Source of the DNA: Terriglobales bacterium
Lineage (GTDB): Bacteria > Acidobacteriota > Terriglobia > Terriglobales > Acidobacteriaceae
Assembly (NCBI GenBank): GCA_035573675.1
Contig: DATMAB010000020.1
Location: 88,408 to 152,407 of the forward strand
DNA: 64,000 nucleotides
Direction: 5' to 3'
Of this stretch, positions 49,140-56,962 are shown piece after piece. Numbering within the stretch: the stretch's first letter is position 1; the number at the start of each line of letters is the position of its first letter. The notes under the pieces are model-generated. The model worked only from the letters and a program-made list of their open reading frames with translations, had not been told where the DNA came from and made no database searches. Made by a program: the position numbers and the translations under genes.

Positions 49140-50555
49140 CTATGGTTTCTGGGAGACAGGCTGCGCCTGTGCCCGTAGTTGCTCCAGGATTTGGGAGCCG
49201 AGGTGAGAAACATTGCCCGCGCCCAAGGTGAGGATCATGTCGCCCTCCTGGGCTCGCGACGCAACCGCTGCCGCGGCTTCCGCGAAGGAAGGCGCATAGA
49301 TCGCTTCTCTGCCGCCCTTTTCGCGGATACACTGCGCCAGAGCTTCGCCGGTGACGCCGGGAATGGGGCTTTCGCTGGCGGCGTAGATATCCAGGATGAA
49401 CAGAGAATCAGCCGCCGCGAAGGCGGTGGCGAATTCGTCCAGCAGCAGTTGGGTTCGGGTGTAACGGTGGGGCTGGAAGATGACGTGGATGCGGCCGTAG
49501 CCGCAGGAACGGGCCGCAGCCAGCGTCGCGCGCACCTCGGTGGGATGGTGGCCGTAATCGTCGATCACGGCGACGCCGCGGACGGCGCCACGCAACTGGA
49601 ACCGGCGATCCACGCCGCGAAAGCCTTCCAGCGCGTCACGAATCTGCGCGGACGGGATGTCGAGGCCCACACCGACGGCCACGGCTGCGGTGGCATTCAG
49701 CACATTGTGGGCGCCGGGAACGCGTACGCGGAATTCGCCCAGGTTCTGCCCGCGGTAACGCACGGTGAAGCGGCTCACCGGGCGTTCCTGCACGGTGCCG
49801 GGTTCGACGGCGCCAAGCGTGAGGCAGAAATCAGCATCGTCGCCGGTGCCATAGGTGACCACGCGACGGGAGAGCCGTGGCACCAGCTTGCGCAGATGGC
49901 GGTCGTCCCGGCACAGGATAGCCATGCCGTAGAAGGGCAGGCGCTCGATGAAGTCACGGAAGGCGCGCAGCACGTCCCGCATGTCGCGATAGCAGTCCAT
50001 GTGCTCGCGGTCGAGGTTGGTCACCACGGCGAGGATGGGAGAGAGCTTGAGAAAGGAGCGGTCACTCTCATCGGCTTCGGCCACGAGGTACTGGGATTTG
50101 CCCAGACGGGCGTTAGAGCCCATGGCATCCACGCGTCCGCCGACGACTACCGTGGGATCCAAACCACCTGCGGCCAGAACCGCCGCGACCATGGAAGTGG
50201 TGGTGGTCTTGCCGTGCATGCCGGCGATGGCGATGCCGTACTTCAGGCGCATCAACTCAGCCAGCATCTCCGCGCGCGGGATGACCGGAATGTGATAGCG
50301 GTGCGCTTCCAGCACTTCCGGGTTGTCGGGGGCGATAGCCGAACTGGTGACGACGACTTCGGCACCCTGCACGTTTTCCGCACGATGACCTTCGAGGACG
50401 GTGGCGCCCAGCGTGCGGAGACGCTCGGTCACAGCGGACAGCTTGAGGTCGGAGCCGGAAACCTTGTAACCCAGCGTCAGCAGGACCTCGGCGATGCCAC
50501 TCATGCCGATGCCGCCGATGCCGACAAAATGAACGCGTTGGATGCGAGCGAACGT
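49140..50555 (-). CDS. murC: UDP-N-acetylmuramate--L-alanine ligase MurC; 5' end unresolved
   Basis: Motifs are GMHGKTTTTSM (P-loop) and DESDRSF. The tracked ORF starts at ATG 50504 (MSGIAEV), which is inside the conserved N-terminal motif HFVGIGGIGMSG. The frame stays open up to the TAG at 50568-50570 with no ATG, GTG or TTG. I extended the call to ACG 50555, which has AGGAG 9 nt upstream. See findings. Confidence 0.85.
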   Translation of the reverse strand, partial: TFARIQRVHFVGIGGIGMSGIAEVLLTLGYKVSGSDLKLSAVTERLRTLGATVLEGHRAENVQGAEVVVTSSAIAPDNPEVLEAHRYHIPVIPRAEMLAELMRLKYGIAIAGMHGKTTTTSMVAAVLAAGGLDPTVVVGGRVDAMGSNARLGKSQYLVAEADESDRSFLKLSPILAVVTNLDREHMDCYRDMRDVLRAFRDFIERLPFYGMAILCRDDRHLRKLVPRLSRRVVTYGTGDDADFCLTLGAVEPGTVQERPVSRFTVRYRGQNLGEFRVRVPGAHNVLNATAAVAVGVGLDIPSAQIRDALEGFRGVDRRFQLRGAVRGVAVIDDYGHHPTEVRATLAAARSCGYGRIHVIFQPHRYTRTQLLLDEFATAFAAADSLFILDIYAASESPIPGVTGEALAQCIREKGGREAIYAPSFAEAAAAVASRAQEGDMILTLGAGNVSHLGSQILEQLRAQAQPVSQKP

Positions 50556-50617
50556 AGCTACCAGCTCCTAGCGGCTAGCTTCCAGCTTTGGCTCCTAGCC
50601 ATTGGCTCTCAGCTTAA
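50555..50617. repeat. Degenerate tandem heptamer array (nAGCTnn) at and upstream of the murC 5' end
   Basis: On the + strand the units read TAGCTAC CAGCTCC TAGCGGC TAGCTTC CAGCTTT GGCTCCT AGCCATT GGCTCTC AGCTTAA. The first five units keep AGC in register. Confidence 0.5.
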
Positions 50618-50718
50618 ACCCTCATCAACATAGCCTAAGACATCGCCGGCCACAGGTGGGTCAACTCCGAAGTACCGAAGACTGGGCTACCCCCTACCCC
50701 GTCCAATGGAATCAACCA

Positions 50719-50749
50719 GTTAGGGGGGCAATAATATAGTTGACTAACC
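50719..50749 (+). repeat. Left end of the insertion: direct repeat GTTAGGGG plus inverted repeat IR-L
   Basis: Read directly from the sequence: GTTAGGGG|GGCAATAATATAGTTGACTAACC. Confidence 0.8.
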
Positions 50750-50757
50750 ACGCTCAG

Positions 50758-50793
50758 AATCGGAAGCGCGGTGACAGGGTGCGCGATGGGTGT
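50758..50793 (+). repeat. 36-nt subterminal block, copy 1
   Basis: AATCGGAAGCGCGGTGACAGGGTGCGCGATGGGTGT. It matches 51681-51716 at 33/36 positions. Confidence 0.8.
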
Positions 50794-50808
50794 GTGGCCA
50801 GGCAGTAC

Positions 50809-51648
50809 ATGCGGGTACTCGCCCAGCTCGTGCATCCCGCCGCTGGCCCGGATACTCTGTTCGTTGTGCTTAAGGTGTATTTGGACGAAAGCGGAATTAA
50901 CCGGGATGCGTTCGTCTGTGTGGTGGCTGGGTACGCCGCCAATACCGCCAGATGGAAGAAATTTGAGAAGGACTGGGCCTCGATCCTTAAGCGTTACAGA
51001 GTTGCCGAGTTTCACGCCAAGGACTTCTTCCGTCGAGATGAGGACGGGAATCCTCTGCACGAGCATTACCGACACCTGGGGCGCGACGGGGCAAATGCCT
51101 TCCTGAATGATTTGATAAACGCAATCAACAAGGCCAAGCCCAAAATGATTGGCAAGGCGGTTCTGGTCGAGGACTTTTTCTCGTTCAGCCTAGGGGAGAG
51201 GCGGTATCTGACTGGCGCACAGTACGACCCGACTGCCAAGAAGTTCCTTAGCAGCGGTGCTCCCGAGACGCACTTCCATGTGCCCATGCAGGCTGTCGTA
51301 ATCAATGCGGCCCTGGGGGCGAAGAGGCTCAAAGAGAAGGCCCACTTCGTGTGTGACCGTCAAGACGAATACGCTCCGCTAGTGGTGGAGAGGTTCGCGG
51401 AGATTGCGAAGCGGAATCCCGATTTGCCGCTAGGCGATTTGGTTCACTCCGACAGCAGGGATGTGTGTGCCTTGCAGGCCGCAGATTTGGCTTGCTGGGG
51501 AGCAAGCGTCTACGCCAAGAAACGCTTCAAGAAGAACGAAACGGAGACGGATTATATGGTCCGCCGCCTTCTGGAGCGCGAGGCTGATTTTGAACTGATG
51601 GATGCACGAAAGCTGCGCCTTCTTCTTGAGGGCTTTCATGGGCAATAA
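50809..51648 (+). CDS. DUF3800-family protein
   Basis: It has the N-terminal hallmark KVYLDESG and the C-terminal hallmark LQAADLACW. The start is uncertain: ATG 50809, or GTG 50866/50875 just before YLDESG. The tracked ORF start at 50740 is a TTG inside IR-L. The stop TAA (51646-51648) lies inside the internal IR copy. Confidence 0.75.
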   Translation: MRVLAQLVHPAAGPDTLFVVLKVYLDESGINRDAFVCVVAGYAANTARWKKFEKDWASILKRYRVAEFHAKDFFRRDEDGNPLHEHYRHLGRDGANAFLNDLINAINKAKPKMIGKAVLVEDFFSFSLGERRYLTGAQYDPTAKKFLSSGAPETHFHVPMQAVVINAALGAKRLKEKAHFVCDRQDEYAPLVVERFAEIAKRNPDLPLGDLVHSDSRDVCALQAADLACWGASVYAKKRFKKNETETDYMVRRLLEREADFELMDARKLRLLLEGFHGQ

Positions 51649-51716
51649 TATAGGTGACTAACCAAGCCAGTCCCGCCCAAAATCGGAAGCGCCGTGACAG
51701 GGGACGCGATGGGTGT
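51641..51716 (+). repeat. Internal third copy of the element end: IR-like 23-mer (51641-51663, 22/23 match to IR-L) plus the 36-nt block (51681-51716)
   Basis: GGCAATAATATAGGTGACTAACC ...17 nt... AATCGGAAGCGCCGTGACAGGGGACGCGATGGGTGT. It has the same orientation as the left end. It exactly fills the gap between the convergent stops at 51648 (+) and 51717 (-). Confidence 0.8.
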
Positions 51717-52469
51717 CTACAGAAGTCCAATCTTGAGGCACTCCGCTTTTGTCGCGGCGATGATCCCCGAGACTTTGCGGATAAGAGCGTCCAGTTTAGC
51801 CTCGACTGGTTTGCCTTTCATGATCTCGATTTCCCCGAACGCTACCGCAAAGGAGACGTGTACCTTGTAGCGGATTTTCGTTCCCGGTCTGACGGCAGCG
51901 TATATCAACTCGTCTTTGTCGCCGTCCCATCCGCAGTAGGGGATGCGGAACGGTCCACTCACCTCCATCCGTTCAACGTGAAGCGGCCCAGTGCTCATTC
52001 CGATAGGCACAATCAGGCGGTGCTTCGAAGCATTACAAAGTTCGTTCAATGCCCAAAGGGCATCATCCCCTCCCTTGTAAGGCTTGAAGCTCGCAAAAAG
52101 CGCATGAATCTCCTTCGGGAAATTTTTGCAGGCACTACCCAGGCGGCTTTTGAAGTCAGCTTCCGTAGCGGAGAACGGAAAGTGAACGTTACCAGAATCG
52201 CCGCCAGCAAGCGTAGCAACACTAGAAGCCGCGAGGTCAAGAGCTGCCCGGAGACTCTCCAGGACACCGGAAACTCGGTGGGTCAGGACTTCCGGCAAGG
52301 GTTTAGCGAGTTTGATCTTGTGGAGTTCATAGATTCCTTCGTCATCCATCTCGGTCACGGCAATGTGGGGGTTACTCTTGAGGAATCTGCGACATCTCCC
52401 CTTGAACTGCTTGAAGTCGCGCTTTGCCCACGCGATTCGTTTCCGGGAATCATCGAAGGGTCGCTTCAT
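51717..52469 (-). CDS. Hypothetical protein (250 aa), cargo of the insertion
   Basis: Composition is balanced, Lys/Glu-rich and low in Arg. Codon preference is consistent (AAG, TTC, ATC, GAC). The motif KPYKGGDDALWALNELCNASKHRLIV is present. I prefer this over the Arg/Ser-rich opposite-strand ORF 51654..52556. Confidence 0.65.
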   Translation of the reverse strand: MKRPFDDSRKRIAWAKRDFKQFKGRCRRFLKSNPHIAVTEMDDEGIYELHKIKLAKPLPEVLTHRVSGVLESLRAALDLAASSVATLAGGDSGNVHFPFSATEADFKSRLGSACKNFPKEIHALFASFKPYKGGDDALWALNELCNASKHRLIVPIGMSTGPLHVERMEVSGPFRIPYCGWDGDKDELIYAAVRPGTKIRYKVHVSFAVAFGEIEIMKGKPVEAKLDALIRKVSGIIAATKAECLKIGLL

Positions 52470-52571
52470 GGCATGACCGGAGAAACTGCCACAATGCGCA
52501 CGGGTGACCCAGGCAGGCGGGGCAGTAGCAGCGGATGGCTTCTTGGAGGGGCTTAGGTTTCATCATGGCAC

Positions 52572-52859
52572 CTAGTTCACAGGATCAGTCTCAGCCTTCA
52601 GTCGCAGAATTGCTTGCTCAAGCAAGTGCAGCGCTTGAACAGGATTTTCAAGACTCGCTGAGGAAACTTCGGCTGCGCTATGTCCCTGGAAACGCTGAAC
52701 AGCATCCGCGATTCCAGCCTCTTGAGCAATGCGAAGAAGCGCCCCCATGCCAGCCTTTAGCAGCACGATCTCCCGTTGCTGGTGGAACACAAGCTCAAGC
52801 AGCCGAAGAGTCTCCAGCTTCGATAGAAACATCGGAGGTTGCATCGGAGAGTTCGTCAT
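52572..52859 (-). CDS. Hypothetical small helical protein (95 aa), cargo of the insertion
   Basis: It shows a heptad-like hydrophobic pattern (LSKLETLRLLELVFHQQREIVLLKAGMGALLRIA). The ATG lies about 20 nt inside the element from IR-R. The competing + strand ORF 52535..52861 cannot be excluded. Confidence 0.4.
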   Translation of the reverse strand: MTNSPMQPPMFLSKLETLRLLELVFHQQREIVLLKAGMGALLRIAQEAGIADAVQRFQGHSAAEVSSASLENPVQALHLLEQAILRLKAETDPVN

Positions 52860-52884
52860 GACCCCACACTACACGAAGGGGCAG

Positions 52885-52915
52885 GGTTAGTCAGGTACAT
52901 TATTGCCGTTAGGGG
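52885..52915 (-). repeat. Right end of the insertion: inverted repeat IR-R plus direct repeat GTTAGGGG
   Basis: The + strand reads GGTTAGTCAGGTACATTATTGCC|GTTAGGGG. Confidence 0.8.
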
Positions 52916-53102
52916 CGGAGATCTCGACAGGTCTCGGAATCTAAAGGAGTTACGGGCAAAGTCTCGTCCGCAAAGTACTTAGCTTTCCGAGAATAGAACC
53001 GGACTTATGTTAGCATTCCGTAATTCACCTGTCAAGCAAGAATATCCGATTGAGTCGTCCCAGGAATCGCTTGTTGGGCACCGCTGGAAGGCGGTCCCGG
53101 AT

Positions 53103-54176
53103 TCAACGGCCTGCGGCAGTCATTACTAGGCGCGCGATGGCTCCGGCGGCGTCGTGATGGGCGAGGCGGCGGGCGGCTTCGGACATGGAGCGCAGACGAG
53201 CGCGGTCGGCGAGCAAGTCGCGTACCGTTTCCACCAGGCGATGAGCGGTGAGTTCGGACTGCGGCAACAACACAGCGGCCCCGGCTTTCGACAACGCTTC
53301 GGCGTTGCGATGCTGGTGGTCATCGGCCGCGCGCGGAAAGGGCACGAAGATGGCGGGCCGGCCGGCAGCGGCGACTTCGGCGACGGTGGAGGCGCCGGAG
53401 CGGCACAGCAGCAGGTCGGCCTCAGCGAACGCTTCCCACATGCGCTCGATAAAGCGGGAAACGACGGAGTTGGGGCCGGCGCGCTCGTAGGCCGCAAGCA
53501 CGGCTTCGAAGTCGCGCTCGCCGGTCTGGTGCAGGACGCGCAGACCGGGAATGTTCCTGTTGAGCAAGGCTGCAGCTTCCATCATGACGCGATTGAGCGG
53601 CGCAGCGCCCTGGCTGCCTCCGAAAACCAGGAGCGTAGGCGATCCTGTGCCTTCGCGCGAGCCGAGGCTGAAAAATTCCTTGCGCACGGGCGTGCCGGTG
53701 ATGTGGGCGTTGCGGAAGTGCCGCGCCGTCTCCGGAAACTGCACCGCCGCAGCCGTGACCCAGCGGGCTACGAGGCGGTTGGCAAAACCGGGCACGACGT
53801 TGGATTCGAAAGCAACGCACGGAATGCCGGCCATCACGGCCGCCAGCATGGCGGGACCGGAGGCATATCCGCCCACGCCCAGCACAGCCTGGGCACGGAA
53901 GCTGCGCACCAGGCGTCGCGAACGGAGGATGGCGCGCGGGAGCCCCAGGGATGTTGAAAGACGCGTGGCGAGGGTGACGTTCTTGAGGGGACCGACGTCG
54001 ATCAGTTCGAGGTCAAAACCAGCGGCGGGGACCAGGCGGGTTTCGATGCCCCGGGCGGTGCCGATAAACAAGAGTTCGGCGCCGTGTTCTTCCTTGAGAA
54101 CACGCGCGATAGCCAGAGCGGGGATGACGTGGCCTCCGGTGCCGCCGCCGGCGATAACGATGCGCGGGGTGTCGAT
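53103..54176 (-). CDS. murG: UDP-GlcNAc:lipid I GlcNAc transferase MurG; start codon non-canonical or unresolved
   Basis: The tracked ORF starts at TTG 54071, but the frame is open upstream and encodes IDTPRIVIAGGGTGGHVIPALAIARVL. That segment contains the conserved MurG G-loop. An in-frame TGA lies at 54210-54212, and no ATG, GTG or TTG occurs before 54071. I extended the call to ATC 54176. See findings. Confidence 0.85.
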   Translation of the reverse strand: MDTPRIVIAGGGTGGHVIPALAIARVLKEEHGAELLFIGTARGIETRLVPAAGFDLELIDVGPLKNVTLATRLSTSLGLPRAILRSRRLVRSFRAQAVLGVGGYASGPAMLAAVMAGIPCVAFESNVVPGFANRLVARWVTAAAVQFPETARHFRNAHITGTPVRKEFFSLGSREGTGSPTLLVFGGSQGAAPLNRVMMEAAALLNRNIPGLRVLHQTGERDFEAVLAAYERAGPNSVVSRFIERMWEAFAEADLLLCRSGASTVAEVAAAGRPAIFVPFPRAADDHQHRNAEALSKAGAAVLLPQSELTAHRLVETVRDLLADRARLRSMSEAARRLAHHDAAGAIARLVMTAAGR

Positions 54177-54462
54177 TGGGTGCCGTCCCTTCGGGACTCG
54201 ATTTCGTTCTCATGCTAACCCGGCACTTACGTACCGGGCTATCGAATTGCCGTCGCTTCGCGACTGACGGGTTGCGGCACCCTCCCCTTGCCGGCTCGCC
54301 TACGCTCGCGGCCGGTCGGGCGCAAGTCGTGCACATGGCTCCAGACGGCACGCCTGAAGGCGTGCCCCTCCGAAATCGAGGCTCCTTTGAGGTTTTCCGC
54401 AACCTGTGAAGTCATGCCCTGACACGAACCTCAGCCAGGATCACGGAAAGGCCGAATCAACA
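54177..54462 (-). ncRNA. Hairpin-dense ftsW-murG spacer; candidate structured leader or cis-regulatory RNA, class unknown
   Basis: Five strong local hairpins are present in + coordinates. GTCCC-TTC-GGGAC is at 54185-54197. CCCGGCAC-TTAC-GTACCGGG is at 54219-54238. GTCGC-TTC-GCGAC is at 54252-54264. CCGGCTCGCC...GGCCGG is at 54291-54315. GGCACGCC-TGAA-GGCGTGCC is at 54347-54366. There is also a long-range complement between GGTTGCGG (54270-54277) and CCGCAACC (54397-54404). No credible ORF is present. Confidence 0.45.
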
Positions 54463-55554
54463 TCAATCCGTGTGCTGGGTGATGTTGAGCAGCACACCGA
54501 TGGAGGCCAGGGTGACGAACAGCGAAGACCCGCCGTAGGAAACCAGGGGCAGGGGGATACCTTTGGTGGGCATCAGGCCGAGGACCACACTGATGTTCAG
54601 GAAAGCCTGCACAGCCACCATGGCGGTGATACCGGCAGCGAGCAGGCGGGCAAAGGGCTCCGAGGCGGCGTTGGCGCAGCGAATGCCGCGGTACAGGAAC
54701 ACGGTGATCAGCGCCAGCAGGATGAGCGCGCCGACCAGGCCGGTTTCTTCCGCGGCCACGGCGAAAATGAAGTCGGTATGCGGCTCCGGCAGGTAGAAGA
54801 GCTTCTGCTTCCCTTCCATCAGCCCGGTGCCGAAGACTCCGCCGGCGCCCACGGCAATCAGAGACTGAATGACGTGGAAGCCGCGGCCCAGCGGGTCCGA
54901 GTATGGGTCGAGGAAGGCGAGGATGCGCTCGTAGCGCCATTTGACACGGAACACCAAGAAGTACAGGGGCACGAGCGAGGCCGCCGCGGCGATGCCGAAA
55001 TAGCGCAGGCGCAGTCCGGCGAGGAAGAGAAGAACGGCGGCGATCAGGACCACGACGATGGCGGTGCCGAGATCCGGTTGCTTCACGATGAGCGCGGCGA
55101 ACAGCAGGATGGGGACAGTGGCGGGCAGCAGCGTGTTGCGCCAGTCATCGAGGGCACGCAGGCGTGTTTCCAGGAACCAGGCCAAATACAGGATGAGCGC
55201 GGGCTTGGCCAGTTCCGAAGGCTGGAAGGAGAAAGCGCCCAGGCGGATCCAGCGGTGCGTGTTGGCGGTGCGATCGAGAAAAAAGACCGCAACCAACAGC
55301 AGCGTGGTGAGGCCCAACAGCGAGAACACCACCGCCGGGTGCCGCAAACGGCGGTAATCCACGTGCATGAGCGCGACCATGGCGGCCAGGCCCGCAGTGG
55401 CCCAGGCCATCTGGCGAAAGAGGAAGTGGTAGGGCGACCCGAAGCGCTCCGCGGCCATGACGGCGGAAGCGCTGAACACCATGACCAAGCCGGAGAAAAC
55501 CAGCAGCAACGTGGCTGTGAACAGCGTCTTATCCACGCTGACGCGCTTAGCCAT
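54463..55554 (-). CDS. ftsW: SEDS-family peptidoglycan polymerase / lipid II flippase FtsW
   Basis: The start is at MAKRVSVDKTLF (residue 84 of ORF 54463..55803), overlapping the murD 3' end by 8 nt. It has about 10 TM helices and the motif QPSELAKPAL. Confidence 0.88.
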   Translation of the reverse strand: MAKRVSVDKTLFTATLLLVFSGLVMVFSASAVMAAERFGSPYHFLFRQMAWATAGLAAMVALMHVDYRRLRHPAVVFSLLGLTTLLLVAVFFLDRTANTHRWIRLGAFSFQPSELAKPALILYLAWFLETRLRALDDWRNTLLPATVPILLFAALIVKQPDLGTAIVVVLIAAVLLFLAGLRLRYFGIAAAASLVPLYFLVFRVKWRYERILAFLDPYSDPLGRGFHVIQSLIAVGAGGVFGTGLMEGKQKLFYLPEPHTDFIFAVAAEETGLVGALILLALITVFLYRGIRCANAASEPFARLLAAGITAMVAVQAFLNISVVLGLMPTKGIPLPLVSYGGSSLFVTLASIGVLLNITQHTD

Positions 55555-56962
55555 GCGCCTGGGCGCCTCCCTCACCGGGGATGGTAGCGGCGGCTGGGCC
55601 TTTGGCGCGGGCCTCCAGCGCGGCCACGGCTTCCTTGAAGACCCGGCCACGGTGCTCGTAGTTCTGGAACTGGTCGAAGCTGGCGCAGGCCGGGGCGAGC
55701 AGCACGATCTCGCCGGGTGAGGCGGCTTCGGCGGCGCGGCGAACAGCGTTTTCCAGGGTCTCGGCGCGGAGGACGTCGGCCGCCCCTGCGATCTGGCGCT
55801 CAATCTTCTCCGCGGCTGCGCCGATGGTATAGACGCGGCGGGCGCGCTCCTTTAAAAGCGGAGCGAGCACGGAGTAGTCGCTGCCCTTATCCTTGCCGCC
55901 CAGGATGATGTGGATGCCGCCGGGGAAAGACTCCAGCGCCTTGATGGCGGCATCGACGTTGGTGGCCTTGGAGTCGTTGTAGAACTCGACGCCGTTGAGC
56001 GTGGCCACGTACTCCAGGCGGTGCTCGACCGCCTTGAACTCGGAGACGGCGCTGGCCACGCGCCGCGGCTCGGCGCTCACGATGCGGCCGCAGCAGGCCG
56101 CCGCCAGCACGTTTTCCAGATTGTGCGCCCCCTTGAGGGGAATGCCGGAGACGGGCATGATCTCCTGCCGGTCGTTCTCGTCATCGCGCCACCAGATCTT
56201 GCCGTCGGCGGCCCAGGCGCCGGCTTCGACTTCGCTCTTGCGGCTGAACCAGCGCACCCGCGCGCGCGTCTTCCTGGCCAGATCGCGGCAGGTGGGGTCG
56301 TCGAAGTTAAGCACCGCGAAGTCGCTTTCCTTCTGGTTCTCGAAGATACGGGCCTTGGCCGCCACGTAGTTTTCGAAGCTACGGTGGCGGTCGAGATGGT
56401 CGGGCGAGACGTTGAGCACTACCGCGATTTCGGGATGAAAGCTGTGGATGGTCTCGAGCTGGAAGCTGGAAATCTCGAGAACAACGTAGGTGTCTGACGT
56501 GCAGTCCGCGACCAGGGAAATGGCCGGGGTTCCGATGTTGCCGCCGACCAGGGTCTCGTAGCCGCCCCAGGAGATCACTTCCCCGGTGAGGGCGGTGGTG
56601 GTGGTCTTGCCGTTGGAGCCCGTGATGGCGACGATGTGTCCGGCGAGGAAGCGCGAAGCCAGCTCGACCTCACCGATCACGGGAACCCCCAGGGCGCGGG
56701 CCTGCTCGAGTTGGGGCACGTCCACGGGCACGCCGGGACTGACCACGATGAGGTCCTGGTCGCGGAAGGTGCGCTCGCCGTGGCCGCCGGCCTCGACGGC
56801 GATGCCGGCATCGAGCAGGGCGGGGATTTCCTGGCGCAGTTCCTCCTCAGTCTTGGCGTCGCTCACGGTGACGCGCGCCCCGCGGGCCTTCAGGAACAAG
56901 GCTGAGGCCACGCCCGACTTGCCCAGGCCGACGACGAGGATGCGTTGGTTGTTAACGTCCAC
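55547..56962 (-). CDS. murD: UDP-N-acetylmuramoylalanine--D-glutamate ligase MurD
   Basis: It has a GTG start and the motifs ILVVGLGKSGVA and ITGSNGKTTTTAL. Confidence 0.92.
   Translation of the reverse strand: MDVNNQRILVVGLGKSGVASALFLKARGARVTVSDAKTEEELRQEIPALLDAGIAVEAGGHGERTFRDQDLIVVSPGVPVDVPQLEQARALGVPVIGEVELASRFLAGHIVAITGSNGKTTTTALTGEVISWGGYETLVGGNIGTPAISLVADCTSDTYVVLEISSFQLETIHSFHPEIAVVLNVSPDHLDRHRSFENYVAAKARIFENQKESDFAVLNFDDPTCRDLARKTRARVRWFSRKSEVEAGAWAADGKIWWRDDENDRQEIMPVSGIPLKGAHNLENVLAAACCGRIVSAEPRRVASAVSEFKAVEHRLEYVATLNGVEFYNDSKATNVDAAIKALESFPGGIHIILGGKDKGSDYSVLAPLLKERARRVYTIGAAAEKIERQIAGAADVLRAETLENAVRRAAEAASPGEIVLLAPACASFDQFQNYEHRGRVFKEAVAALEARAKGPAAATIPGEGGAQAHG

What the first reader, a model, noticed from the sequence alone, without database searches (positions are those of the whole stretch)
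54177..54462. Hairpin-dense spacer of about 285 nt between ftsW and murG: candidate structured leader RNA that could sequester the murG ribosome-binding site
Other junctions in this cluster are 4-8-nt overlaps or spacers under 200 nt. This 285-nt spacer has no credible ORF.

Read on the operon (minus) strand, it contains:
- GGCACGCC-UUCA-GGCGUGCC, an 8-bp stem
- a CCGGCCGCG...GCGAGCCGG stem
- GUCGC-GAA-GCGAC
- CCCGGUAC-GUAA-GUGCCGGG, with a GNRA loop
- GUCCC-GAA-GGGAC
- a long-range complement, GGUUGCGG...CCGCAACC, that would enclose three of the hairpins

The GNRA/GAA loops appear only in the minus-strand reading. This argues that the RNA, not the DNA, is the functional form.

The last hairpin contains the only SD-like sequence (GAAGGGA) in front of the putative murG start, as in a translational expression platform.

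The segment CCGCAACCCGUCAG-hairpin loosely recalls the 3' half of the ydaO/c-di-AMP riboswitch, which is associated with cell-wall genes. I cannot place the rest of that consensus and do not claim that identity.
Basis: partly seen in the sequence, partly recalled or inferred. Interest (0 to 1): 0.62.

Follow-up and report, generated by a model that had tools for sequence, protein, structure and literature searches.

The report
Transposase-linked repeat cluster upstream of murG
The hairpin-rich gap between ftsW and murG is a pile-up of genome-wide repeat elements that elsewhere flank small IS200-like transposase genes, not a dedicated regulatory RNA; its insertion also removed murG's normal ATG start codon.

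Summary
The hairpins are real: the minus-strand RNA fold has z = -4.05. The spacer is not a conserved murG leader.

- **Known motif.** Rfam finds Acido-Lenti-1 (RF01687) at 54219-54265, at 39 bits against a cut-off of 37. No ydaO or other riboswitch match appears.
- **Dispersed repeats.**
  - The genome holds 28 copies over the cut-off and 43 at E<1e-3, of which 39 are extragenic.
  - Each of its four Y1/IS200-like transposase genes is bracketed by inverted copies.
  - In 40 homologous loci from other species, 21 show the same flanks.
- **Match to the transposase flank.** The murG-proximal ~90 nt (54266-54177, three hairpins) aligns end to end with the 5' flank of one such transposase, including the SD-bearing hairpin.
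- **Other hairpins.** The 8-bp hairpin belongs to a second repeat family with 67 copies. The CCGGCC stem lies in a third, low-copy module.
- **Relatives.** The same-genus relative has a 4-nt ftsW-murG spacer. Other relatives have unrelated spacers.

One part survives: the last hairpin is the transposase's ribosome-binding hairpin, now in front of murG. murG has lost its ATG and has only ATC (54176) as a well-placed start.

The parts
54463..55803 (-). ftsW. The longest ORF is shown; the true start is probably near 55575. The stop TGA is at 54465-54463.
   Evidence: ORF list. It is 91% identical to FtsW of the same-genus relative by tblastn. My crude gene model gives 54463-55575.
54432..54462 (-). 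About 31 nt directly after the ftsW stop, with no repeat match in the genome.
   Evidence: blastn of the spacer against the genome found only the self hit here.
54407..54431 (-). Degenerate half copy of repeat family C (AGGTTCGTGTCAGGGCATGACTTCA). The 3' arm has decayed and supplies GGTTGCGG, the 5' arm of the long-range pair.
   Evidence: It is 83-92% identical over 22-29 nt to the 5' halves of at least 10 family C copies.
54345..54376 (-). Repeat family C copy: TTTCGGAGG-GGCACGCC-TTCA-GGCGTGCC-GT, the 8-bp hairpin.
   Evidence: The genome has 67 copies within 3 substitutions of GGGCACGGCTTCAGCCGTGCC, against about 0.05 expected by chance. 58 are extragenic. Stem variants are compensatory (GGC/GCC, GAC/GTC, GCGC).
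54271..54328 (-). Low-copy repeat module D. It contains the CCGGCCGC...GCGAGCCGG stem and CCGCAACC, the 3' arm of the long-range pair.
   Evidence: Matches: 84% over 58 nt to C18:228372-228429, 79% to C8:13509-13560, 86% over 35 nt to C10:246979-247013. Two of the three matches lie near A-L-1 hits (C18:228444-228524, C8:13425-13457). The C10 match lies beside a family C copy at C10:247054-247074. Matches themselves.
54219..54265 (+). Rfam Acido-Lenti-1 (RF01687) match, comprising hairpins hpA and hpB. Read on the minus strand: GUCGC-GAA-GCGAC and CCCGGUAC-GUAA-GUGCCGGG.
   Evidence: cmscan gives 39.0 bits against a gathering score of 37, E = 3e-7. The closest copies in the genome are 90-96% identical.
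54177..54266 (-). Full three-hairpin repeat unit in transposase-sense orientation: hpA, linker, hpB, purine-rich linker, then CGA-hpC (GTCCC-GAA-GGGAC)-GGCACCCA. hpC carries the SD-like AAGGGA.
   Evidence: It aligns end to end with the 5' flank of the Y1 gene at C7:25364-25456; similarity stops within 1 nt of that gene's ATG. The genome has about 20 units showing all three hairpins.
53103..54176 (-). murG, with putative non-canonical start ATC at 54176-54174. The ancestral ATG position now reads CCG (54164-54162).
   Evidence: The stop-to-stop frame 53103-54209 has no ATG, GTG or TTG before RIVIAGGGTGGH. The 17 relatives whose junction was resolved (3 of the 20 fetched showed no ftsW upstream) start with M followed by R[AV][IV][IL]AGGG in most. 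murG is single copy in the genome.

Best explanation
The ftsW-murG spacer is a BIME-like mosaic of dispersed, extragenic, hairpin-forming repeats. They were inserted into a junction that is only 4 nt long in the same-genus relative.

**Composition.** Reading with the operon, the spacer holds:
- a decayed copy and an intact copy of a 67-copy hairpin family (C);
- a low-copy module (D);
- one complete ~90-nt three-hairpin unit, whose first two hairpins are the Rfam motif Acido-Lenti-1.

**What the unit is.** It is the terminal inverted repeat of small (147 aa) Y1/HUH IS200-like transposase genes. In this genome and in many Acidobacteriota and Planctomycetota, the gene is bracketed by two inverted units whose hpC ends abut its start and stop codons.

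**Inferred mechanism.**
- By analogy with REP/RAYT and IS200/IS605 systems, the hairpins are probably recognised as single-stranded DNA by the transposase. I infer that this is how the units were scattered through intergenic DNA.
- The hairpins are not there to regulate murG.

**Consequence for murG.**
- The transposase-proximal end of the unit now lies directly before murG. That end carries the weak 5-bp hairpin with the SD-like AAGGGA, which sits 8 nt before the transposase ATG.
- murG's ancestral ATG is gone.
- murG is therefore most likely translated from ATC 54176, 9 nt after that SD. This step is inferred.
- Any influence of the cluster on mRNA stability or on ftsW/murG coupling would be a by-product.
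For: **Shown**
- RF01687 is found at 54219-54265, over the gathering score.
- The genome has 28 copies over the cut-off and 76 at E<=1.
- 39 of 43 copies with E<1e-3 are extragenic in a genome that is 87% coding. Orientation relative to neighbouring genes is 18:21.
- There are four Y1 genes (PF01797 83 bits; NF033573 59 bits against a cut-off of 55). Each has a '-' copy on its left and a '+' copy on its right.
- The murG upstream region aligns with the transposase 5' flank up to the start codon.
- In 40 homologous Y1 loci from other species, 21 carry RF01687 over the cut-off at the same stereotyped flank positions. At least 13 carry it on both sides in inverted orientation.
- Family C has 67 copies. 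Module D has copies near A-L-1 hits or a family C copy.
- The same-genus relative has TGA-AGCC-ATG, and other relatives have unrelated spacers.
- Copy number per related genome ranges from 0 to 59.
- No promoter-like or terminator-like site lies in the spacer.

**From the literature**
- Y1 genes with dispersed TIR or REP-like flanks in Acidobacteria are described in PMC3733652 and PMC6006769.
Against: - Three relatives with many Acido-Lenti-1 copies (G008 35, G018 27, G017 12) have no Y1 homologue at E<=1e-10. The repeat-transposase link is therefore not one-to-one.
- No transposition or binding has been shown. The single-strand-DNA mechanism is an analogy.
- About 31 nt after ftsW and about 20 nt between the two C copies match no repeat.
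- The cluster folds better on the operon strand (z = -4.05 against -1.75). Nothing here excludes that it has acquired an effect on murG expression.
- ATC as the start is unverified.
Confidence: 0.85

Rival explanations
1. Exapted repeat cluster. The inserted repeats have since acquired a function in the dcw operon. hpC would serve as murG's ribosome-binding site and throttle its translation. The stable hairpins would uncouple or stabilise the ftsW and murG parts of the transcript, as E. coli REP/BIME elements do.
For: - murG is single copy and essential by general knowledge. It has lost its ATG and has no other SD-like sequence.
- The same hairpin stands at the same spacing before the transposase ATG, and directly before the starts of at least three other host genes: C15:41587, C14:10837 and C25 around 4876.
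- The operon strand folds with z = -4.05.
Against: - hpC is only 5 bp, and the local 56 nt are no more stable than shuffles.
- Units show no orientation bias towards gene starts (18:21).
- The close relative does without the spacer.
- No expression data are available.
Confidence: 0.25
2. Dedicated cis-regulatory leader or riboswitch sensing a cell-wall-related ligand and sequestering the murG RBS.
For: The spacer is hairpin-dense, lies upstream of a cell-wall gene, and has an SD-like sequence inside a hairpin.
Against: - No riboswitch model matches at E<=10, including ydaO.
- The spacer is absent from the same-genus relative and has no homologue in 17 relatives.
Confidence: 0.03
3. A free-standing small RNA gene (Acido-Lenti-1, as typed in Rfam), transcribed from the plus strand antisense to the operon and acting in trans or as an antisense regulator of murG.
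For: - Rfam types RF01687 as 'Gene; sRNA'. Weinberg et al. 2010 rated it a likely RNA, not cis-regulatory.
- The match is on the plus strand.
Against: - There are 28-76 copies per genome in either orientation, clustered in arrays.
- Copies sit at fixed positions as inverted flanks of Y1 transposase genes across phyla.
- No promoter-like site is found.
- This copy has a C.A mismatch on the plus strand where the minus strand has U.G.
Confidence: 0.05
4. Assembly artefact. Repeats could have caused a mis-join or an indel at the ftsW-murG junction, and the real genome would have a normal murG start.
For: - This is a draft genome of 28 contigs.
- murG lacks a canonical start, and an out-of-frame ATG lies at 54213.
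Against: - The repeats are short (under 100 nt), diverged (84-96%), and embedded in unique flanks on both sides.
- Gene order ftsW-murG is as in the relatives.
- Three base changes would be needed to turn CCG back into ATG.
Confidence: 0.04

Closest known systems
Acido-Lenti-1 RNA motif (Rfam RF01687; Weinberg et al. 2010, PMC2864571)
   Same: The two-hairpin core at 54219-54265 scores over the family's gathering threshold. The taxon fits (Acidobacteriota). The motif is multi-copy and not tied to particular genes.
   Different: - Rfam lists it as an sRNA gene. [quoted passage not shown]
- Here it is part of a longer three-hairpin unit that forms the inverted flanks of Y1 transposase genes.
- The third hairpin (hpC) is not in the Rfam model.
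REP / BIME elements with RAYT transposases (REPtrons; Nunvar 2010, Bertels and Rainey 2011, Ton-Hoang 2012, from my own knowledge)
   Same: - Short extragenic palindromes in tens of copies, singly and in clusters.
- A Y1 HUH transposase gene flanked by the repeats in inverted orientation.
- Clusters sit between genes of operons.
   Different: - No GTAG tag.
- The proteins carry the Y---Q--HH signature rather than the RAYT YI..NP motif.
- They score 26 bits against a cut-off of 80 on NF047646.
- There are four gene copies, including a tandem 95%-identical pair.
TIRYT / TIRtrons of Acidobacteria (Di Nocera et al. 2013, PMC3733652)
   Same: [quoted passage not shown] A sharply defined group is described in Terriglobus, Koribacter, Acidobacterium and Granulicella.
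   Different: I could not compare sequences, because the figures with the TIRs are not held. That paper makes no link to the Rfam motif.
TnpA(Y1) subclass 1.2 and class 3 (Quentin et al. 2018, PMC6006769)
   Same: - The proteins fit the subclass 1.2 key motifs: DH[IV]H, WQ, YI.NQ..HH, about 148 aa.
- The flanks resemble those described for class 3: several atypical hairpins with a C-n-G-A foot, in high copy number in Acidobacteria.
   Different: - Subclass 1.2 was reported as lacking associated hairpins or REPs and as mostly cyanobacterial and Bacteroidetes.
- Class 3 has other protein motifs (NHVH, W[TA], YV..EQ).
- Here subclass-1.2-type proteins carry class-3-like flanks.
IS200 tnpA 5'-UTR stem-loop that occludes the Shine-Dalgarno sequence (from my own knowledge; alluded to in PMC3733652)
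   Same: A small hairpin holds the SD just upstream of a Y1 transposase start codon. The same hairpin now precedes murG.
   Different: hpC is only 5 bp, and its effect on translation is untested.

Membership tests
Rfam RF01687 Acido-Lenti-1 | Covariance-model score at or above the gathering score (37 bits) | tested here: met
   39.0 bits, E = 3e-7 in the 801-nt search and 2.6e-5 in the whole window.
Rfam RF01687 Acido-Lenti-1 | An 8-bp hairpin, a conserved GCUA linker and a 5-bp hairpin, full model length | tested here: met
   Model positions 1-46 of 46 are aligned. One non-canonical pair appears on the plus strand.
REP/RAYT system (REPtron) | Short palindromic repeats, many copies, predominantly extragenic | tested here: met
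   43 copies at E<1e-3, of which 39 are extragenic.
REP/RAYT system (REPtron) | Y1 transposase gene flanked by the repeats in inverted orientation | tested here: met
   4 of 4 genes in this genome. 21 of 40 loci in other species have at least one flank hit, and at least 13 have both.
REP/RAYT system (REPtron) | Conserved GTAG tetranucleotide at the foot of the hairpin | tested here: not met
   The units show a CAG foot before hpA and a C-n-G-A foot before hpC. No GTAG is present.
REP/RAYT system (REPtron) | RAYT-type protein (NCBIfam NF047646; Y motif YI..NP) | tested here: not met
   26.1 bits against a cut-off of 80. The Y motifs are YIRNQKKHH, YIESQEEHH and YIHNQAEHH.
IS200/IS605 insertion sequence | Y1 HUH transposase (PF01797 / NF033573) | tested here: met
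   PF01797 83 bits. NF033573 59.1 bits against a cut-off of 55.
IS200/IS605 insertion sequence | Different subterminal hairpins at the left and right ends on the same strand, with no terminal inverted repeats | tested here: not met
   The left and right flanks are the same ~90-nt unit in inverted orientation.
IS200/IS605 insertion sequence | Several near-identical full-length copies in a genome | tested here: inconclusive
   One tandem pair is 95% identical. The other two genes are 51-55% identical.
TnpA(Y1) subclass 1.2 (Quentin 2018) | Key motifs DH[IV]H, WQ and Y---Q--HH; length about 148 aa | tested here: met
   All proteins are 147 aa with WQ and Y---Q--HH. The HuH motif is DHIH or DHVH in three and NHAH in one (motifs from PMC6006769 Table 1). 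No phylogeny was made.
TIRYT/TIRtron, Acidobacteria group (Di Nocera 2013) | Sequence identity of the TIRs or proteins with the published examples | not testable with these tools
   The sequences are only in figures and an alignment file that are not held.
ydaO / c-di-AMP riboswitch (RF00379) or any riboswitch | Covariance-model match | tested here: not met
   No such hit at E<=10 in 53900-54700 on either strand.
Conserved cis-regulatory leader of murG | Homologous structured sequence upstream of murG in related genomes | tested here: not met
   The same-genus relative has a 4-nt spacer. The other 16 relatives have overlaps to ~200 nt of unrelated sequence with no Rfam hit.

The most novel reading that the evidence does not exclude
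- **Reinterpretation of the motif.** Acido-Lenti-1 (RF01687) would not be an sRNA gene. It would be the hairpin-bearing terminal repeat of subclass-1.2-type Y1 transposases, a subclass reported to lack such repeats.
- **Co-option at murG.** In this genome the transposase-proximal SD hairpin of one unit would have been co-opted as the translation-initiation region of the essential gene murG. murG lost its ATG in the process and would initiate at ATC.
Probability: 0.4. Interest if true: 0.5.

Novelty: new member of a known kind. Interest (0 to 1): 0.32.

Why it matters
- **For the finding itself.** It removes a false riboswitch candidate. A REP-type cluster can mimic a structured leader, and a genome-wide repeat census plus one close relative settles the question.
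- **For Rfam and mobile-element work.**
  - The data give a concrete explanation for an Rfam family of unknown function.
  - Its copies flank Y1 transposase genes at fixed positions in Acidobacteriota and Planctomycetota.
  - They tie that family to a transposase subclass thought to have no repeats.
- **For this organism.** An essential cell-wall gene appears to depend on a repeat-derived ribosome-binding site and a non-canonical start codon. That is a testable case of a selfish repeat reshaping the expression signals of a core gene.

Tried and rejected
- **Riboswitch or leader search.** Rfam with permissive thresholds on 53900-54700 gave no ydaO or other riboswitch. Only sub-threshold nadA and RAGATH-32 noise appeared.
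- **k-mer profile.** The 11-mer multiplicity profile was uninformative because stems covary and the background is about 5.
- **Gene calling.** The first two versions of my crude gene caller mis-called or dropped ftsW. The third, with start trimming, was used. It is only approximate.
- **Failed or wasted runs.**
  - A fuzzy-regex scan for module D timed out and was replaced by blastn.
  - One alignment call was made with a dummy sequence and should be ignored.
  - One script failed on a file name.
- **Signals in the spacer.** No promoter or intrinsic terminator was found.
- **Strand preference.** Counting G.U against A.C pairs across copies gave too few informative pairs to decide: 2 favour one strand and 1 the other.
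- **Transposase remnant at the junction.** I considered that the junction retains transposase codons: GGCACCC-AATCG compared with GGCACCC-ATGCCGC-AATCG. A 5-nt match is too weak to claim.

Full report
**1. The observation**

Genes in this part of the window run on the minus strand. ftsW ends with TGA at 54465-54463. The conserved MurG N-terminus (RIVIAGGGTGGH) begins near 54161.

- GGCACGCC-UUCA-GGCGUGCC at 54366-54347.
- CCGGCCGC...GCGAGCCGG at 54315-54291.
- GUCGC-GAA-GCGAC at 54264-54252.
- CCCGGUAC-GUAA-GUGCCGGG at 54238-54219.
- GUCCC-GAA-GGGAC at 54197-54185.
- The distant pair GGUUGCGG/CCGCAACC.

The structure exceeds chance:
- The 306-nt operon-strand RNA folds at -139.5 kcal/mol against -118.5 +/- 5.2 for dinucleotide shuffles (z = -4.05).
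- The opposite strand gives z = -1.75.
- Perfect local hairpins and long-range 8-mer complements are both enriched over shuffles.

**2. What the hairpins are**

A permissive Rfam scan of 53900-54700 found no ydaO or other riboswitch. It did find Acido-Lenti-1 (RF01687) on the plus strand at 54219-54265. The score is 39 bits against a gathering score of 37. There is also a partial second match at 54181-54197. It is the only non-tRNA family over threshold in the whole window.

In the window's own 3.16-Mb genome the same model finds 28 copies over the cut-off and 76 at E<=1, often in clusters.

blastn of the spacer against the genome shows it is a mosaic:

| Window coordinates | Element |
|---|---|
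| 54407-54431 | Decayed half copy of repeat family C |
| 54345-54376 | Intact family C copy, the 8-bp hairpin |
| 54271-54328 | Low-copy module D, containing the CCGGCC stem |
| 54177-54266 | Full Acido-Lenti-1-containing unit |

Details of the families:
- Family C has 67 copies within three substitutions of GGGCACGGCTTCAGCCGTGCC. About 0.05 would be expected by chance. The stem variants are compensatory and 58 copies are extragenic.
- Module D recurs at C18:228372, C8:13509 and C10:246979, near A-L-1 hits (C18, C8) or a family C copy (C10).
- Only about 31 nt after the ftsW stop and about 20 nt between the two C copies match nothing else.
- The arms of the long-range pair lie in the decayed C copy and in module D.
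- The other long-range complements involve sequence within the repeat modules, such as GACGGCAC/GUGCCGUC.

**3. The repeat unit and its transposase**

Pairs of Acido-Lenti-1 hits in inverted orientation about 590 nt apart led to four genes:
- C7:25457-25897
- C7:26322-26762
- C26:170869-171309
- C21:84435-84872

They encode 147-aa Y1/HUH transposases:
- PF01797 scores 83 bits.
- NF033573 (IS200/IS605) scores 59 bits against a cut-off of 55.
- NF047646 (RAYT) scores only 26 bits against a cut-off of 80.

Each gene has a '-' copy on its left and a '+' copy on its right, whatever the gene's own strand.

Listing the copies in transposase-sense orientation shows the complete unit:
- CAG-hpA-CGGCA-AnTCGATAGC-hpB-G, then about 20 purine-rich nt, then CGA-hpC-GGCAC(CC).
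- All three stems show compensatory variation.
- The hpC end abuts the start codon on one side of the gene and the stop codon on the other.

The murG upstream sequence from 54266 to 54177 aligns end to end with the 5' flank of the C7 gene:
- The transposase reads GAGTCCCGAAGGGACGGCACCC-ATG.
- murG reads GAGTCCCGAAGGGACGGCACCCA-ATC.

**4. Generality**

With a crude gene map (87% coding), 39 of 43 copies at E<1e-3 are extragenic. Their orientation relative to the neighbouring genes is unbiased (18:21). That is REP-like behaviour, not that of a cis-regulatory leader.

In 30 related genomes the copy number ranges from 0 to 59. It is essentially zero in the sister family. Homologous Y1 genes occur in several of the repeat-rich genomes and are flanked by the motif there too. 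Three repeat-rich genomes have no homologue at E<=1e-10.

A scan of species-representative genomes found at least 569 homologous Y1 loci. Most are in Acidobacteriota (Terriglobales, Pyrinomonadaceae, Blastocatellia, Bryobacteraceae), and some are in Planctomycetota and other phyla.

Rfam run on 40 of these loci gave the following:
- RF01687 was over its cut-off at stereotyped positions in 21 loci.
- The left copy is on the '-' strand and ends 45-100 nt before the start codon.
- The right copy is on the '+' strand and begins about 45 nt after the stop codon.
- At least 13 loci have both flanks.

**5. Relatives of the spacer**

MurG is single copy here.

- The same-genus relative (FtsW 91% identical, MurG 79%) has ...ACTGA-AGCC-ATGCGT..., a 4-nt spacer.
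- Sixteen other relatives have overlaps to about 200 nt of mutually unrelated sequence.
- None of these spacers gives an Acido-Lenti-1 or riboswitch hit.

**6. Consequence for murG**

Most relatives begin MurG with ATG followed by R-[AV]-[IV]-[IL]-AGGGTG. Here the ATG position reads CCG. No ATG, GTG or TTG lies in frame between the upstream stop (54212-54210) and the G-loop.

The only near-cognate codon in a sensible place is ATC 54176. It lies 9 nt after AAGGGA in hpC, one base away from where the transposase ATG sits after the same hairpin.

Similar placement of hpC directly before a start codon occurs at other host genes: C15:41587, C14:10837 and C25 around 4876. The unit's end can therefore evidently serve, or at least be tolerated, as a translation-initiation region.

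hpC is weak. It has 5 bp, and the surrounding 56 nt are no more stable than shuffles (z = +0.92). I see no thermodynamic case for a switch. No promoter-like or terminator-like site lies in the spacer.

**7. Comparison with what is known**

- **Weinberg et al. 2010** defined Acido-Lenti-1 from 89 sequences. They rated it a likely RNA that is neither cis-regulatory nor a switch, and gave it no function. [quoted passage not shown]
- **Di Nocera et al. 2013** described TIRYT/TIRtrons. These are tyrosine transposase genes flanked by long, partly palindromic inverted repeats that can form dispersed families. One sharply defined group is in Acidobacteria.
- **Quentin et al. 2018** defined two relevant groups.
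  - Subclass 1.2 has DH[IV]H, WQ, YIKNQKEHH and about 148 aa, and was said to lack associated hairpins.
  - Class 3 has other motifs and is flanked by atypical hairpins with a CnGA foot, in high copy number in Acidobacteria.
- **The proteins here** match the subclass 1.2 motifs, while their flanks behave like those of class 3.

The system works like a REPtron or TIRtron. It fails two RAYT membership tests (GTAG tag, RAYT protein model) and one IS200/IS605 test (non-inverted ends).

**8. Verdict**

The hairpins are real. They are an insertion of selfish, transposase-associated repeats, not a murG leader or riboswitch.

As a discovery, the spacer is an ordinary kind of thing, a new instance of a known kind. 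Two side results are modestly interesting:
- an explanation for RF01687;
- an essential gene left with a repeat-derived SD and an ATC start.

Limits:
- My gene map is approximate.
- The single-strand-DNA mechanism is inferred by analogy.

Noticed in passing
window 54162-54213: murG has no ATG, GTG or TTG before its conserved G-loop. The position of the relatives' ATG reads CCG. ATC 54176 is the only well-placed near-cognate codon. ATG 54213 is out of frame.
   Followed up: partly
L062, L064, L066, L067, L069, L071 (and degenerate in L068), just upstream of murG: Six relatives from different genera share TTTATAGTCA(C/G)-NNN-ATG directly before murG, and L068 has a degenerate form. A -10-like TATAGT ends 6 nt before the A of the ATG, as expected for a leaderless murG mRNA from its own promoter. 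The motif is absent from this window.
   Followed up: no
genome-wide, e.g. C27:211924-211944, C15:13132-13152; window 54347-54367: A second REP-like family has the consensus TTTCGGAGGGGCACGGCTTCAGCCGTGCCGT, often followed about 25 nt later by GGGCTTTAGCC. It has 67 copies with compensatory stem variants and no Rfam match. No associated transposase was identified, although copies lie between the tandem Y1 genes on C7.
   Followed up: partly
G000 C7:25300-27350: Two tandem Y1 transposase genes are 95% identical. Each is bracketed by repeat units, and an array of at least four further units or partial units follows.
   Followed up: partly
G000 C6:84701-84830: A complete repeat unit is followed by GTGCCGCAATCCTTCG, encoding VPQSFVSN, the first 8 codons of a Y1 transposase. 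The reading frame then diverges. This looks like a truncated transposase remnant.
   Followed up: no
G000 C15:41497-41590, C14:10742-10840, C25:4782-4880: Repeat units end a few nt before the start codons of unrelated host genes, two of which have signal-peptide-like N-termini. The geometry is the same as at the transposase genes and at murG.
   Followed up: partly
L069 and L075, ftsW-murG spacers of two relatives: The spacers are built from GATTGAG/AATTGAG-like heptamer repeats in direct and inverted arrays. They are unrelated to the repeats in this window.
   Followed up: no
L074, ftsW-murG spacer of relative G003: An ATG-initiated frame of about 45 codons (MSQSSVKSEFRTIIDSL...) sits between ftsW and murG.
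   Followed up: no
L078:263-369: A palindrome of about 100 nt upstream of murG in a sister-family genome gives spurious sub-threshold matches to several microRNA precursor models.
   Followed up: no
window 50505-53102 (earlier notes): Earlier notes report an IS1595-type cargo transposon between murG and murC, and a missing canonical start for murC. Together with this finding, two mobile-DNA insertions lie in one dcw cluster, each next to a gene without a canonical start.
   Followed up: no
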